Of a stretch of 64,000 bases of DNA, positions 663 through 41,602 are shown in pieces (position 1 is the stretch's first letter; the number at the start of each line of letters is the position of its first letter). The notes under the pieces were generated by a model, which had not been told where the DNA came from, searched no databases, and worked only from the letters and a program-made list of their open reading frames with translations. The DNA comes from the human T2T-CHM13v2.0 reference genome, Homo sapiens: NCBI RefSeq assembly GCF_009914755.1, contig NC_060933.1, one strand, 5' to 3'. A program made the translations under genes and the position numbers.

Positions 663-723
663 TCTTATTACGGATTTAAGTTGCATTTCACATAGAGGTC
701 TTTTATATTAAAAAAAAAATGCT

Positions 724-1094
<371 letters not shown>

Positions 1095-1957: not shown

Positions 1958-2790
1958 TTGTGCTTAAGTAGGGAGAACATCTTGAAAATATGAAGTTGCC
2001 ATTGAAAAAGCACAGTAGTCATCCTTAGCTGCAGGTCTGGAGTGGTCATATGGGCCAGTTTGGTATAGTGCTTAAGAGTATGAACTCTTGAATAAGATAA
2101 ATATGCACTCCTAAATCAGCATTACTATTTCCATATCTAGAAAATTGGAATTAAAAGCAACCATCTAAATAAAAATATTTTTATCTATGTGCATATTTAT
2201 TCCACAAATATTAATTGAGTTCTTTTCTAGGAAATTAACACAAAGCAATGAACAAAGTAGTCAAAAATCGCTATGGTCAGAAAACAAAAAAAAATGAAGT
2301 TCATAAGCCAACCTATTGTTGGTTGATAGATATAGTGGTAGTCTTATAGAAATTCTTTCCTGATTGTGGCATAGAGTAAATATTTGAAGGAACTCTAATA
2401 GGCGGGATAATTGATATTGAGCTTCTGTAATAAACAACTAAACTTAAGAACTTCATTTTTTTCTTTTCTGACCATAGTGATTTTTGACTACTTTGTTCAT
2501 TGCTTTGTGTTAATTTGCTAGAAAAGAACTCAGTTAATATTTGTGGAATAAATATGCACATAGATAAAAATATTTTTATTTAGATGGTTGCTTTTAATTC
2601 CAATTTTCTAGATATGGAAATAGTAATGCTGATTTAGGAGTGCATATTTATCTTATTCAAGAGTTCATACTCTTAAGCACTATACCAAACTGGCCCATAT
2701 GACCACTCCAGACCTGCAGCTAAGGATGACTACTGTGCTTTTTCAATGGCAACTTTATATTTTCAAGATGTTCTCCCTACTTAAGCACAA
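1958..2790. repeat. Long inverted repeat: arms 1958-2307 and 2443-2790, 135-bp spacer
   Basis: Hand alignment of left arm against reverse complement of right arm gives 6 substitutions and one 2-nt indel over ~350 bp; 1993-2214 pairs perfectly with 2534-2755. Confidence 0.98.
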
Positions 2791-3192
2791 GTAATTAACA
2801 ACTAACGTAGCTTAAACCAGCAAAAGAAAAAAAGAACTTTATTTCTTGCCCACAACACATTCCAGTATGTCAGGTTAGTATGGGAGCTTGTGGGAGGAGA
2901 CTCTGATTTATAACATCATTCAAGAACCAAGTCTGACAGAAGAACCTATAATCCTCAATCGTTTTAGTGCATGACAACAGGGATCGACCTGATTATTTCT
3001 ATCCAAAAAGTGTTTGGGAAATAAGACAGAACAGAAGATCATGCAGGATATTTTATGGGCAGGCCTGGGTGGATCAGTGTTCAGTCACATTCCCCCAAAT
3101 AACTACAGGTAAAGTCGGAAAATGTAGCTTTGCTGTGTGCCTAAAAAGAAAATAAAACGGATTTGGTAAACTCATAGCATTGTCTATATTAC
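2400..3192 (-). mobile_element. MLT1J/K-like MaLR LTR interrupted by the right arm of the inverted repeat
   Basis: 'gcttctgtaataaacaactaa' before the arm and 'gtagcttaaaccagc...ctttatttcttgcccaca...gaaaatgtagctttgctgtgtgcc...ggtaaactcatagcattgtctatattaca' after it are consecutive MLT1-type motifs. Confidence 0.6.
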
Positions 3193-3194
3193 AG

Positions 3195-3280
3195 GAAGCA
3201 AATGGGATAATGTTTGTAAAGCACCTGGCACACTGCCTGGCACATAATAAGCCTTCAATAAATGGAGGCTATTACTACCA
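3195..3280 (+). mobile_element. MIR 3' fragment
   Basis: 'aaatgggataatgtttgtaaagcacctggcacactgcctggcacataataagccttcaataaatg'. Confidence 0.75.
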
Positions 3281-3774
3281 CAGGAATTTTAATTTGTTAG
3301 AATATAACACATTTTTATTGAATTTGGGTAATTACAGAATGGAACATTTTGTTCTGCATAAACCCACTTGATTATAAGAATAGCAGTGCCATATTACATT
3401 TGCATTACGTTTTACTGTTTATGAAGCACTTCCATAGATATAATCTCACTTTGTTTTTTTTTTCTTTTCAGTACTCTATGAAACAGGTAGATAATATTCC
3501 TATTTAACCATAATCAAACACTTTTAGAGAGTGGTATCCTAGCCAAGGTATTACAGCTAATAAATGATAGAGACAAGATTCAAATCCAGATTGTTTTACT
3601 GTGAGGTCAGTTTATCTTATTATACCACCACTACCCAAATCACTAAAATCCACAACTGTTCTCTACTATTAAAAATTTGGTAATGATTCCTGTAAAAGCT
3701 GGGCGATCTGTGAGTCCCAAGTTTGTTTTTTATTGTGATTAAGAAACATCCTTTGTAAGTGCCTAATATCATAT

Positions 3775-4030
3775 TTCTTTTTAATTGATGCATAATATTT
3801 TACATATTTCGGTGGTACATGTGATAATTCATTGCATACATAGAATGTGTAATGAACAACTCAAAATATTTGGAGTTTCCATCACTTTGAGTATTTGTCA
3901 TTTCTATATGTTGAGAACATTTCAAATTCTCTCTTCTACTTACTTTGAAATATACAATACATTGTTGCTAAATATAGTCACTGTACTCAGCTTTAAACAT
4001 TAGGACTCAAAACTTCTATCTAAACGTATA
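3775..4030 (-). mobile_element. L1MA-type 3' end fragment
   Basis: 'tttacatatttcggtggtacatgtgata...acatttcaaattctctcttctacttactttgaaatatacaatacattgttgctaaatatagtcac'. Confidence 0.8.
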
Positions 4031-6649: not shown

Positions 6650-6825
6650 ATTAATTGTCCTTGTAACCTTCGACAGTTTTGCTCCCTGGTGCCTCAGTTT
6701 CCTCCTTTGTAAAATAGCTATTGCTTCCTAGTGTTTTGCTAGAGTTAAATGTGATAATTAATGGAAAGGGCCTAGTGCAGAGTCAGGCACATAGTAAGTG
6801 CACAATAAATAGTAAATTATTATTA
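6650..6825 (+). mobile_element. MIR
   Basis: 'gtgcctcagtttcctcctttgtaaaatag...gttaaatgtgataat...ggcacatagtaagtgcacaataaat'. Confidence 0.8.
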
Positions 6826-26765: not shown

Positions 26766-28862
26766 GGTTTTCTTTTCTTTCTTTTTTTTTTTCTTTGCAG
26801 CTATTGTAAAAGAGGTTGAGTTCTTGATTTGATTCTCCACTTGGTCGCTGTTGGTGTATAAGAGAGCTACTGTTGTGTACATTAATTTTGTATCTGGAAA
26901 CTTTGCTGAATTCTTTTATCAGTTCTAGGAGCTTTCTGGGTGTGTCCTTAGGGTTTTCAAGGTAAACGGTTACATCATCAGCAAACAGTGACCATTTTGA
27001 ATTCCTCTTTACAAATTTGGATGCGCTTTATCTCTTTCTCTTGAGTGATTGCTATGGCTATGACTTCCAGTACTATGTTGAAGAGGAGTGGTGAGATTGG
27101 GCGTCCTTGTCTTGTTCCAGTTCTCAAAGGGAAATAATACTTAGGAATATACCTAACCAAGGACTCAAAAGACCTCTACAAGGAAAATTACAAAACACTG
27201 CTGATGGAAATCACAGATGACACAAACAAATGGAAACATCCCATGCTCATGAATGGGTAGAATTAATATTGTGAAAATGACCCTACTGCCAAAAGCAATC
27301 CAAAAATTTGATGCAATTCCCATCAAAATACCACCCTCATTCTTAATTAGAAAAAACAATACTAAAATTCATATAGAACCAAAAAAGAGACTGCATAGCC
27401 AAAGCAAGACTAAGCAAAAAGAACAAATCTGGAGGCATCACACTACCTGATTTCAAACTATACTATAAGGCCATAGTCACCAAAACAGTGTGGTACTGAT
27501 ACAAAAATAGGTATACAGATCAATGGAACAGAATAGAGAACCCAGAAATAAACACAAATACTTACAGTCAACTGATCTTCAACAAAACAAACAAAAACAT
27601 AAAGTGGGGAAAGAGTACCCTTTTCAACAAATGGTGCTGGGATAATTGGCTAGCCACATATAGGAGAATGAAACTGGATCCTCATCTTTCATCTTATACA
27701 AAAATCAACTCAAGATGGATTAAGGACTTAAACCTAAGACCTGAAACTATAAAAATTCTAGAAGATAACATTGGAAAAACTCTTCTCAACATTGGCTTAG
27801 GCAAGGATTTCATGACCAAGAACCCCAAAGCAAATGCAATAAAAACAAAGATAAATAGCTGTGACCTAATTAAACCAAAGAGCTTTTGCATGGCAAAAGG
27901 AACAGTTAGCAGACTAAACAGACAACCCACTGAGGGGGAGAAAATCTTCACAATCTATACATCTGACAAAGTACTAATATCCAGAATCTATAATGAACTC
28001 AAACAAATCAGTAAGAAAAAAGCAAACAGTCTCATCAAAATGTGGGCTAAGGACATGAATAGACAATTCTCAAAAGAAAATATACAAATGGCCAACAAAC
28101 CTAAGAAAAAATGGCCACCATCACTAATGATCAGGGAAATGTAAATCAAAACTACAATGAGATACCATCTCACTCCTGCAAGAACGGTCATAATCAAAAA
28201 ACAGTAGATGTTAGCATGGATGCAGTGGACAAGGAACACTTTTATGCTGCTGGTGGGAATGTAAAGTAGTACAGCTACTATGGAAAACGGTGTGGAGATT
28301 ATTTGAAGAACTAAAAATAGAACCACCATTTGATCCAGCAATCCCACTACTGGGTATCTACTCAGAGGAAAAGAAGTCATTATTTGAAAAAGATACTTGC
28401 ACACACGTTTATAGCAGCACAATTCACAATTGTAAAATCATGGAACCAACCAAACGTCTATCAATCAACGTGTGGATAAAGAAACTGTGGTGTATATATA
28501 CAATAGATTACTACACAACCATAAAAATGAATGAACTAACAGCATTTGCAGTGACGTAGATGAGATTGTAGACTATTATTCTAAGTGAAGTAACTCAGGA
28601 ATGGAAAACCAAAATATTGTGTGTTCTCACTGATATGTGAGAGCTAAATTATGAGGACGTGAAGGCATAAGAATGATGCAATGGACTTTGGGGACTTGGA
28701 GGGAAAGAGTGGGAGAGGGCGAGGGATAGAAGACTACAAATATGGTGCAGGGTATACTGCTCAGGTGATGGGTGCACCAAAATCTCACAAGTCACCACTA
28801 AAGGACTTACTCATGTAACCAAATACCACCTGTACCCCAATAACTTATGGAAAATAAATAAA
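26766..28862 (+). mobile_element. L1PB-type, 5'-truncated with 5' inversion (inverted ~26766-27132, sense ~27133-28862)
   Basis: Minus-strand ORF2 peptide '[22 protein letters not shown]' joined to plus-strand '[15 protein letters not shown]' and '[20 protein letters not shown]'; PB-type 3'UTR ending 'taacttatggaaaataaataaa'. Confidence 0.9.
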
Positions 28863-32695: not shown

Positions 32696-33556
32696 TATAA
32701 GAGTTTCCTTCTCTCTTCATCCTTACTGACGTTTGATATTTTTTATCTTTCTGGTTATAGCTTGTTGGTGGGAATATAAATTTCCATTATAGAAAACATT
32801 TCCATTATGGATATTTCTCAAAAAACTAAAACTAGGACTACCACTAAATTCAGCAATCCCACTACTGGGTACTTACCCAAAGGAAAAGAAATCAGTATAT
32901 CAAAGACATACCTGCATCTTCATGTTTATGGCAGCATTATTTGTAATAGCAAAGATATGGAATCAACCTAAGTGTCCCTCAATGGATGAACAGATAAAGG
33001 AAACGTGCTATACAAACCTAGTGGAACACTACTCAGCCACCCCAAAAATGAAACCCTGCCATTTGAAGCAACATGAATGGAAATGGAGTCATTCTGTTAT
33101 GTAAAATAAGCCAGGCACAGAAAGACAAATGTAAAATATCACATGTTTTTACTCATATGTGAGAGCTAAAAAAGTTGATCTCATGAAGGTAAAGAGTAGA
33201 ATGATAGTTGGCAAAGTCTGGGAAGGGTATCTGTATGTGTGTGTGGTAGGTAGAGGGAGACGGGACAGATGGAGACAGTTAGGTTAATAGGTACAAAAAA
33301 TACTGTTAGAGAGAAGGAATAAGTTCTGATGATTGATAGCACAGTAGGGTGACTATAGTTAAAGATAATATATTGTATATTTCAAAATAGTTAGAAAAGC
33401 AGATTTGCAATATTCCTAACACAAAGAAATGGTAATTATTCAAGGTGATGAATAACTTAAATACTGAGTTGATTATTATACATTCTATGAATGTATCACA
33501 GTATCACCTGTATTCCATAAACATGTGCAAATATGTATTAATAAAAGAAAAGGAAT
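32696..33556 (+). mobile_element. L1MA-type 3' fragment with short 5' inversion, nested in the L1MB ORF2
   Basis: Inverted 32696-32761, sense from 'ttgttggtgggaatataaat'; degenerate TSD aaataacaaagctg / aaagaacacacctg; host ORF2 resumes 'gaggactcagac'. Confidence 0.8.
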
Positions 33557-40200: not shown

Positions 40201-40946
40201 TTGGATAATGTAAATTGATATGTTTAACTATTTTTGAGGTGTCAGCCAAAGGTCACTGGTATTCTGGGGCAGAGATACATGGCAGATTTAATTGGGGTAA
40301 TTCAAACATTTAATATTGCTTCAATATGTCTTGATATCCTTAAATTGAAAATAAGATCAGCTTGTTCTAGCTATAGATTTAAAAATTACTTAAAATCATT
40401 TCCCACTTTTTCAGGAAGAGAAACGTAATATTGCAAGTTGTGAGTTCAAAACAATGATCAGTAAGTATAAGTCAAAGAAAGCCTTGAAATAAGAGTAATA
40501 GGCATGTAAATATCTCTCAATAATATTTGTTATCAATTCAGAGGTGATAAAGTTTTTTTTTTTTAAAAAAAAAGAGCTGCCCAGGACAAATTTGTTTGTA
40601 AGACCAAGCAAAGTCTTACCTTCTCTAAACATTTTTACTGCCAAATCATATTTTCAAGTAATAGACCAAGGATCTTTACAAATCAAACTGAATTATGAGA
40701 AAAATTAAGGCTAGCCTGAGTAAATAATATGCCCATTAATATTCATGCTATTGACTCACAGAGGTAACTGTGTGTGCGTGTGTGCGTGTGTACTATGTTA
40801 GAAAAGGTGCAACCCCTAGATAAAATAAACTTGAAAGATTTATGATTTCTTTGTATAAGCAATATAGCTGATAAGTAGAAATATTGCTATAGGTCCAGTG
40901 TGATGCTCTTCTCAATTGCATTCCTGAAAATTGTAAAAACAAGTTT

Positions 40947-41243
40947 GTTTTTTTTTTTGAAATAGGGTCTCACTCTGTTGCCCAGGCTGGAGTGCAATAG
41001 ACTGATCTTGGCTCATTGTAGATTTGACCTCCTGGGCTCAAGCGATCCTCCCACCCTAGTCTCCTGAATAGCAGAGACTACTGGCACACACCACCATACT
41101 TAGCCAACTTTTGTATTTTTTTTTTAGAGATAGAGGTCTTACTATGTTGCCCAGTCTGGTCTTGAACTTCTGGACTCAAGTGATCTTCCTGCCTCAGTCT
41201 CCCAAACTACTGGGACTACAGGTATGAGCTACTGTGCCCGGTT
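40947..41243 (-). mobile_element. AluJ-type with TSD gtaaaaacaagttt
   Basis: J diagnostics ('gggctcaagcgatcctcccacc'); identical flanks at 40933-40946 and 41244-41257. Confidence 0.95.
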
Positions 41244-41260
41244 GTAAAAACAAGTTTTGA

Positions 41261-41602
<342 letters not shown>

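What the first reader, a model, noticed from the sequence alone, without database searches (positions are those of the whole stretch)
1958..2805. 350-bp inverted repeat made by a locally templated insertion flanked by a 15-bp direct duplication
Seen: 1958-2307 and 2443-2790 are ~98% identical reverse complements. The right arm is bracketed by gtaataaacaactaa (2427-2441) and gtaattaacaactaa (2791-2805). Removing the arm and one copy rejoins what looks like one MLT1 LTR, so the right arm is the derived copy. The arm is ordinary flanking DNA (MIR/L2 scraps) with no TIRs, no poly(A) and no L1-endonuclease-type site, so it is not a MITE or a typical retrocopy. Inference: synthesis left the template at ~2442, copied 350 bp of the opposite strand starting 135 bp upstream, then re-primed 15 bp behind the exit point. 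This fits template switching (FoSTeS/MMBIR) or a templated insertion at a staggered break.
Basis: partly seen in the sequence, partly recalled or inferred. Interest (0 to 1): 0.85.

Follow-up and report, generated by a model that had tools for sequence, protein, structure and literature searches.

The report
Old inverted local duplication from break repair
A 348-base stretch of ordinary human DNA was copied in reverse and pasted 135 bases away, inside an old retroelement LTR, leaving a 15-base target duplication; this is a clean example of a known kind of DNA-repair scar.

Summary
Arms 1958-2307 and 2443-2790 are reverse complements: 348 aligned columns, 6 mismatches and one 2-base gap. They are the only two copies found in the 3.1-Gb genome. 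The right arm is bracketed by a 14-of-15 direct repeat.

The right arm is the derived copy. Both repeat copies fall on one single-copy site of a dispersed LTR family.

Neither junction shows microhomology. There is no poly(A) and no good L1 endonuclease site.

Best reading: repair of a break staggered by 15 bases, with a locally templated inverted copy as the patch. This matches the "repair-mediated duplications" of Pace et al. 2009. They reported 824 proximal cases in the human genome, up to 619 bp, and 6 of 39 inspected had target duplications.

A pure replication template switch fits less well. It would need a return behind the exit point, a type not seen among 794 short events.

An L1 ORF2p-made staggered break with fold-back synthesis is a live sub-hypothesis.

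No primate outgroup, RepeatMasker run or supplementary table was available. The feature is real but ordinary, and interest is low to moderate.

The parts
1958..2307 (+). Donor (source) arm, 350 bases of low-copy DNA
   Evidence: Aligned to the reverse complement of 2443-2790. It has no flanking direct repeat of its own. Only two copies were found genome-wide.
2308..2426 (+). Spacer between donor and target site. Its last ~15-20 bases appear to be the 5' start of an old LTR copy (start inferred at about 2405-2412).
   Evidence: The 24- and 30-base words ending at 2441 match the 70 bases upstream of the family motif in 24 family copies. Random window words matched as well in only 9 of 3000 and 6 of 3000 trials. 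Alignment.
2427..2441 (+). Target-site duplication, copy 1
   Evidence: family D2. Best family offset is -25, the same as for copy 2.
2442..2442 (+). Single orphan A: either a 1-base filler or a 16th, mismatched base of the target duplication
   Evidence: It matches neither the donor's next base nor base 2806.
2443..2790 (-). Derived inverted copy of the donor, 348 bases
   Evidence: 6 mismatches and a 2-base gap against the donor. It is bracketed by the direct repeat and interrupts an LTR family copy.
2791..2805 (+). Target-site duplication, copy 2 (one mismatch to copy 1)
   Evidence: family D2.
2806..2890 (+). Continuation of the interrupted LTR copy. Only this stretch was aligned; the element probably runs further.
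   Evidence: Two blocks taken from 2810-2817 and 2838-2846 define a pattern with 1009 genome matches against 6 for the reversed control. Aligned with 24 family copies.

Best explanation
The right arm (2443-2790) is a one-off, locally templated insertion. It is a DNA-repair scar, not a mobile element.

Inferred sequence of events:
1. A double-strand break with ends staggered by 15 bases arose inside an old LTR copy.
2. A reverse-complement copy of the 350 bases lying 135 bases upstream was made or captured as a patch. This could be fold-back synthesis on the resected left 3' tail, copying from the sister chromatid or homologue, or capture of a locally made fragment.
3. The patch was joined at both ends without microhomology.
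4. Fill-in of the 15-base overhangs produced the direct repeat.

Shown here: the structure, the direction (right arm derived), the lack of copies elsewhere, and the junction anatomy. Inferred: the staggered break and the way the copy was made.

The event belongs to the repair-mediated duplications of Pace et al. 2009. It probably has no function, although it creates a roughly 350-bp hairpin-forming palindrome.
For: - Arms: 348 columns, 6 mismatches, one 2-base gap.
- Only the right arm is bracketed by a 14-of-15 direct repeat. The chance rate for such a repeat is about 1e-5 per position.
- The arm has 2 matches in the whole genome, both here.
- The downstream flank is a dispersed family: 1009 pattern matches against 6 for the control.
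- In an alignment of 24 of the 30 fetched copies, both repeat copies fall on the same columns, which occur once per copy.
- The last 24 or 30 bases before the insertion match the family upstream region better than all but 9 of 3000 or 6 of 3000 random window words. Both repeat copies have their best offset at -25.
- Both junctions have 0 bases of microhomology, with at most 1 filler base and no poly(A).
- Pace et al. (passages and section 7 read): 824 human insertions with a unique donor within 5 kb, mean 162 bp and maximum 619 bp. None of 39 inspected proximal cases had poly(A), and 6 of 39 had target duplications of 4-21 nt.
- The 6 arm differences and the 1 repeat difference argue against an assembly artefact.
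Against: - Pace et al. attribute their class to synthesis-dependent strand annealing. 31 of their 39 inspected proximal cases had microhomology, and the 'filler + target duplication' category was 0 of 39 among proximal cases. This locus has no microhomology.
- Pairwise local alignment of the upstream flank to the 24 family copies scored no better than shuffles (mean 18.8 against 17.1 +/- 3.2). The two repeat copies shared at least 10 of 15 subject positions in 0 of 24 copies. LTR continuity therefore rests on the set-wise test and the multiple alignment.
- I dropped 6 of the 30 fetched copies by eye before aligning.
- No outgroup or empty allele could be examined.
- A 15-base stagger is typical of L1 ORF2p rather than of random breaks, so the origin of the break is open.
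Confidence: 0.75

Rival explanations
1. Footprint of L1 ORF2p. The endonuclease made its usual staggered nicks. No cDNA was retained. The reciprocal (left) end was resected, folded back on itself, primed synthesis of the inverted copy, and was ligated to the other end. This is a specific version of the best explanation that names the source of the break, so its probability lies inside the 0.75 given there.
For: The 15-base duplication lies within the 12-18 bp range reported for ORF2p-made insertions. A 2026 preprint version describes inverted duplications of genomic DNA at the reciprocal end of ORF2p-made breaks with the target duplication preserved, and says other break sources rarely give that feature (passages only). 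The geometry fits. If the first nick was on the minus strand at 2426/2427, the inverted copy sits on the reciprocal (left, plus-strand 3') end (reading).
Against: Neither side has a good endonuclease site. The minus strand reads TTAC/AG and the plus strand CTAA/CG, against the 5'-TTTT/A-3' consensus quoted. No L1, cDNA or poly(A) is present at either junction. The fold-back junction has 0 bases of microhomology, whereas the preprint's two examples had 2 bp.
Confidence: 0.2
2. Replication template switch (FoSTeS/MMBIR, or a long version of the four-point model). The nascent strand left its template at 2441/2442, copied the opposite strand from 2307 back to 1958, and returned 15 bases behind its exit point.
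For: A single reverse-complement copy from close by is what the four-point model produces, and such events are known to make new hairpins (passages, listings). 5 of the 6 substitutions and the gap lie in the first 93 bases of the copied tract. The probability of 5 of 6 falling in either terminal 93 bases is 0.013, which would suit error-prone synthesis just after a switch.
Against: Neither switch point has microhomology. The event would be type 3-2-4-1. Löytynoja and Goldman report that no type with point 4 before point 1 occurred among 794 filtered events, because the return would need the new duplex to be reopened. That survey covered short events only. The clustering of differences has other explanations: an A-run, gene conversion between the arms, and a cut-off chosen after seeing the data.
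Confidence: 0.12
3. Reverse-transcribed copy of a local, non-polyadenylated transcript, inserted by target-primed reverse transcription or used as a cDNA patch (templated sequence insertion, class 1 or class 2).
For: Target duplications of at least 5 bp define class 1. RNA-templated patches at breaks are documented (passages).
Against: There is no poly(A), no polyadenylation-signal arrangement and no TTTT/A site. The donor is 135 bases away, whereas those insertions are described as templated from distant regions. In Pace et al. 0 of 39 proximal cases had poly(A) tails, against 17 of 29 in the other group. No transcript is annotated over the donor in the hub's gene table.
Confidence: 0.07
4. 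Assembly artefact or a mobile element (MITE-like).
For: Fold-back chimeras occur in long-read data, and a target duplication is a transposon hallmark.
Against: The arms differ at 6 sites plus a gap, the repeat copies differ at 1 of 15, and a 135-base unique spacer separates the arms. The genome search found only the donor and this copy. No terminal inverted repeats were seen on reading the ends, beyond a shared 6-base palindrome near both ends.
Confidence: 0.02

Closest known systems
[quoted passage not shown]
   Same: An insertion of at least 50 bp interrupts a transposable-element copy. The donor is otherwise unique and lies within 5 kb on the same chromosome. The size is within range (maximum 619 bp). 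There is no poly(A). Filler and target duplication are both among the breakpoint features listed.
   Different: No microhomology here, whereas 31 of 39 inspected proximal RDs had it. The donor is very close (135 bases; their cut-off was more than 50). The copy is larger than their mean of 162 bp. The passages I read give no breakdown by orientation. I could not open Table S1, so I cannot say whether this locus is listed there.
Short template-switch mutations, four-point model (Löytynoja and Goldman 2017, PMC5453318)
   Same: One event copies a nearby segment in reverse complement and creates a new inverted repeat or hairpin.
   Different: The copy is 348 bases, whereas events there were kept from 14 bp upward and described as short. 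The switch-point order would be 3-2-4-1, a type with point 4 before point 1 that was not observed there.
Inverted duplications at ORF2p-made break ends (bioRxiv 10.1101/2024.12.14.628481, 2026 version)
   Same: An inverted duplication of DNA next to a staggered break, with the target duplication preserved. The proposed route is fold-back priming on a resected 3' overhang.
   Different: Those examples accompany an L1 or cDNA insertion, sit at endonuclease motifs and show 2 bp of microhomology. None of these is present here. Those events are somatic or experimental, whereas this one is in a germline assembly.
Templated sequence insertion polymorphisms (Onozawa and Aplan 2016 review, PMC5110952)
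   Same: A non-repeat genomic sequence is inserted as a patch while the donor is retained. Class 1 has target duplications; class 2 has end-joining junctions with non-templated bases.
   Different: This locus mixes the two classes: a target duplication without poly(A) or a TTTT/A site. The donor is adjacent rather than distant, and nothing here points to an RNA intermediate.

Membership tests
Repair-mediated duplication (Pace et al. 2009) | An insertion of at least 50 bp interrupting one transposable-element copy whose two parts are adjacent in the family | tested here: met
   Pattern 1009 against 6 for the control. Multiple alignment with 24 copies. Set-wise test 9 of 3000 and 6 of 3000. The weaker pairwise test was negative. 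The family name was not tested.
Repair-mediated duplication (Pace et al. 2009) | The inserted sequence is present at only one other place in the genome, within 5 kb and more than 50 bp away | tested here: met
   2 matches genome-wide, both at this locus. The gap is 135 bases. The search tool's counts are stated to be lower bounds, and diverged copies would be missed.
Repair-mediated duplication (Pace et al. 2009) | No poly(A)/poly(T) tail of 5 or more at an insertion end | tested here: met
   Junction sequences. The A-run inside the arm is templated by the donor.
Repair-mediated duplication (Pace et al. 2009) | Break-repair signature at the junctions (microhomology, filler, deletion, target duplication) | tested here: inconclusive
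   A target duplication of 15 and at most 1 filler base are present. Microhomology is 0 at both junctions.
FoSTeS/MMBIR template switching | Microhomology at the switch junctions (typical range recalled, from no call) | tested here: not met
   0 bases at the entry junction and 0 at the exit junction.
Four-point template-switch mutation | [quoted passage not shown] | tested here: met
Four-point template-switch mutation | Switch-point order among the observed types (point 1 before point 4) | tested here: not met
   The order here is 3 (1958), 2 (2307), 4 (2427), 1 (2441). Types with 4 before 1 were not observed in 794 events.
L1 ORF2p-mediated insertion / class 1 templated insertion | Target-site duplication of L1-like length | tested here: met
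   15 bases. The quoted range is 12-18 bp.
L1 ORF2p-mediated insertion / class 1 templated insertion | Poly(A) tail and a TTTT/A nick site | tested here: not met
   No tail. The sites read TTAC/AG and CTAA/CG. Consensus as quoted.
DNA transposon / MITE | Terminal inverted repeats and multiple dispersed copies | tested here: not met
   Only the donor and this copy were found. No terminal inverted repeats were seen on reading the ends.

The most novel reading that the evidence does not exclude
The site is a germline footprint of an aborted L1 ORF2p integration. Staggered nicks were made at a non-canonical site, no cDNA was retained, and the break was healed by fold-back synthesis on the reciprocal end. 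If so, target-duplicated local inverted copies without any L1 sequence would mark ORF2p damage across primate genomes, and would be one way in which long hairpin-forming loci arise.
Probability: 0.2. Interest if true: 0.5.

Novelty: new member of a known kind. Interest (0 to 1): 0.25.

Why it matters
On its own this is one more scar of imperfect break repair in a gene desert, with no sign of function. Its value is as a clean specimen: both junctions are intact, the target duplication is exact, there is no microhomology, and the donor lies only 135 bases away.

That combination sits between the published classes (capture by strand annealing, L1-type insertion, template switch). A genome-wide collection of such sites could show whether target-duplicated local inverted copies come from L1 endonuclease breaks.

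The event also created a roughly 350-bp near-perfect palindrome. Such a structure could form a cruciform or a long double-stranded RNA if transcribed. No evidence for either was sought beyond the fold and the Rfam scan, which found nothing in 1958-2805.

Tried and rejected
- Whole-genome DNA search with the flanks 2308-3200 found only the locus itself. The tool skips common words, so it cannot detect old repeat families.
- BLAST and nhmmer of the flanks against the 64-kb window gave nothing significant for 2308-2441 or 2806-3170. Only 3171-3300 had one weak significant hit, E = 0.00058.
- nhmmer of the flanks against the 30 fetched family loci gave no hit at E <= 0.01.
- Pairwise local alignment of the upstream flank to the family copies was no better than shuffles.
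- The supplementary files of Pace et al. were closed. I could not check whether this locus is in their Table S1, nor see their orientation data.
- No primate or other human assembly, and no repeat library (Dfam/RepeatMasker), is reachable with these tools. Dating by outgroup, the empty allele, and the names MLT1, MIR and L2 are therefore untested. From recall only, the flank family looks like a MaLR/MLT1-type LTR and 3171-3300 looks like MIR.
- I built no in-silico empty allele. The two flanks were always handled as separate rows.
- Rfam found nothing in 1958-2805.
- Print search: four searches found the general classes but nothing on this locus. None of them searched for the locus by coordinates.

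Full report
**What is there.** The window is human (T2T-CHM13 chr9, per the hub note). The repeat finder reports inverted arms 1958-2292/2456-2790 (335 nt, 99%) and 2283-2307/2443-2467. A gapped alignment joins them into 1958-2307 against 2443-2790: 348 aligned columns, 6 mismatches and one 2-base gap in an A-run.

The right arm is bracketed by a 15-base direct repeat, 2427-2441 and 2791-2805, matching at 14 of 15. A single unmatched 'a' sits at 2442. The left arm has no such bracket.

A 14-of-15 repeat at this spacing is rare. It occurs at 6 of 63,621 positions in the window (this site plus five at 40944-40949), and at 17 of 1,971,910 over spacings 300-450.

As single-stranded DNA the region folds into one long hairpin, -399.7 kcal/mol against -77.6 +/- 5.7 for 20 shuffles. 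That follows directly from the repeat.

**Not a repeat family, not an artefact.** The window's own genome is searchable (3.1 Gb, 24 contigs). The arm finds two places, the arms themselves. The tool says its counts are lower bounds and it cannot see old, diverged copies. The arm is therefore not a young dispersed family, but I could not test whether it contains ancient MIR or L2 fragments.

A self-comparison of the 64-kb window finds no other high-identity local pair at depth 2. The other local pairs lie in segments with self-hit depth 9-10, apart from one 68% pair.

The 6 substitutions, the gap, the mismatch between the repeat copies and the 135-base unique spacer all argue against an assembly fold-back. 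I could not look at reads.

**Which arm is derived.** Direct searches with the flanks failed:
- the genome search skips common words;
- BLAST and nhmmer against the window found nothing significant for these flanks.

I then took two short blocks from the right flank (2810-2817 and 2838-2846) as a gapped pattern. It matches 1009 places in the genome, against 6 for the reversed control, so the right flank is a dispersed family. In most listed copies the blocks are 8 bases apart; here they are 20 apart, with an A-rich expansion.

Of the 30 fetched copies I dropped 6 that did not resemble the rest (L004, L005, L009, L012, L026, L031). I aligned the other 24 with the two window flanks as separate rows. 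The upstream flank ends, and the downstream flank begins, on the same columns. Those columns occur once in each family copy and lie about 11-25 bases before the first block.

Three controls were run:
- nhmmer of the flanks against all 30 loci gave nothing at E <= 0.01.
- Pairwise local alignment of the upstream flank scored no better than shuffles (18.8 against 17.1 +/- 3.2). The two repeat copies shared at least 10 of 15 subject positions in 0 of 24 copies.
- A set-wise ungapped test was positive. The last 24 and 30 bases before the insertion reach a mean identity over the 24 copies that random window words reach in 9 of 3000 and 6 of 3000 trials. Both repeat copies have their best offset at the same place, -25. 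The 15-mer alone is not significant (209 of 3000).

I take LTR continuity as supported but not proven. Only about 30 bases of the element lie upstream of the insertion, which limits the power of any test. The name MLT1 rests on recall only.

**Junction anatomy.** At the entry junction the acceptor and the donor (in acceptor orientation) share 0 bases before the arm. At the exit junction they share 0 bases after it. There is at most one filler base (2442), which could instead be a 16th, mismatched base of the duplication.

There is no poly(A) or poly(T) at either end. The A-run near the inner end is copied from the donor. The possible first-nick sites read TTAC/AG (minus strand) and CTAA/CG (plus strand). 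Neither matches the 5'-TTTT/A-3' preference quoted in the review read.

**Distribution of differences.** Five of the 6 substitutions and the gap lie within 93 bases of the inner end, and a 222-base stretch is perfect. The chance of 5 of 6 falling in either terminal 93 bases is 0.013. The chance of a clean run of 222 or more is 0.016. Both cut-offs were chosen after seeing the data.

Possible causes:
- error-prone synthesis at the start of the copied tract;
- the mutable A-run;
- gene conversion between the arms.

One difference is at a CpG that is kept in the donor.

Divergence of 6 of 348 (Jukes-Cantor 0.0174) corresponds to about 7-17 My at recalled rates of 1.2e-9 to 0.5e-9 per site per year. 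The event is younger if the inner differences arose at birth, and older if the arms were homogenised by conversion.

**Mechanism.** A duplication of the target on both sides of an insert is most simply explained by a break whose two strands were cut 15 bases apart, with both overhangs kept and filled.

The patch is a reverse-complement copy of DNA 135 bases away, and the donor is intact, so it was synthesised or came from a sister or homologous molecule. Its polarity is what fold-back synthesis on the resected plus-strand 3' tail of the left end would give. The lack of any pairing between that 3' end and 2308 onward leaves the priming unexplained. Ligation of a locally produced fragment is equally compatible.

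I give about 0.75 to 'repair of a staggered break with a locally templated inverted copy' in the broad sense, which includes the ORF2p variant. The replication-switch and reverse-transcription readings account for most of the rest.

**Comparison with what is known.**
- *Pace et al. 2009* (outline, passages and section 7 read). They searched for exactly this configuration: a TE copy interrupted by at least 50 bp whose only other copy lies elsewhere. They found 1,136 cases, 824 with the donor within 5 kb (mean 162 bp, maximum 619 bp). None of 39 inspected proximal cases had poly(A) tails, and 6 of 39 had target duplications. However, 31 of 39 had microhomology, and 'filler + target duplication' was 0 of 39 among proximal cases against 5 of 12 interchromosomal cases without tails. 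The locus therefore fits the class while sitting in a rare junction category. It may already be in their Table S1, which I could not open.
- *Löytynoja and Goldman 2017* (passages). Their four-point model also yields new inverted repeats. In that model this event would be 3-2-4-1, and no type with point 4 before point 1 occurred among 794 filtered short events. The authors explain this by the need to reopen the new duplex.
- *The templated-insertion review* (passages). It splits insertions into an L1-type class (target duplication, poly(A), TTTT/A) and an end-joining class (none of these). This locus has the first feature only.
- *A preprint on L1-induced rearrangements* (passages of the 2024 and 2026 versions). 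It reports 12-18 bp duplications at ORF2p-made insertions. It also reports inverted duplications of genomic DNA at the reciprocal break end, made by fold-back priming with the duplication preserved, and says other break sources rarely give this feature. This makes an ORF2p-made break a serious sub-hypothesis (about 0.2). Against it stand the absent nick motif, the absent L1 sequence and the absent microhomology.

**Verdict.** The direction of the event and the 'staggered break' reading are supported, and the 'template switching' reading is weakened. The event is a clean member of a catalogued class of germline repair scars, with no evidence of function. Its interest lies mainly in being a well-preserved specimen for asking what makes 15-base staggered breaks in the germline.

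Noticed in passing
window 2818-2837: Within the interrupted LTR copy, the two family blocks are 20 bases apart with an A-rich filling, against 8 bases in most listed family copies. This looks like a local A-rich expansion.
   Followed up: partly
window 697-1051: Sub-threshold Rfam matches to Metazoa_SRP, mir-1268 and mir-3135, in a stretch masked as repeat in the hub note. From recall, this is what an Alu element gives.
   Followed up: no
window 28293-28648 and 32808-33170: A pair of direct copies at self-hit depth 2, 368 columns at 68% identity, 4160 bases apart. Probably two old copies of one element.
   Followed up: no
window 40944-40949 (and +364): Five consecutive positions with a 14-of-15 match at a spacing of 364. 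This suggests a longer local direct repeat or low-complexity stretch next to the masked repeat at 41076-41597.
   Followed up: no
window 3171-3300: Several weak nhmmer matches elsewhere in the window (best E = 0.00058 at 6736-6811). This suggests an old dispersed element; from recall it is MIR-like.
   Followed up: no
window 1963-1968, 2443-2448, 2780-2785: The palindromic hexamer CTTAAG lies near both ends of the inserted copy. At the inner end it exists only in the copy, because of the substitution at 2303/2447. Probably coincidence.
   Followed up: no
window 3849-3863: A third, 13-of-15 copy of the 15-base repeat lies about 1 kb downstream (family D2). I treated it as chance and did not test it.
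   Followed up: no
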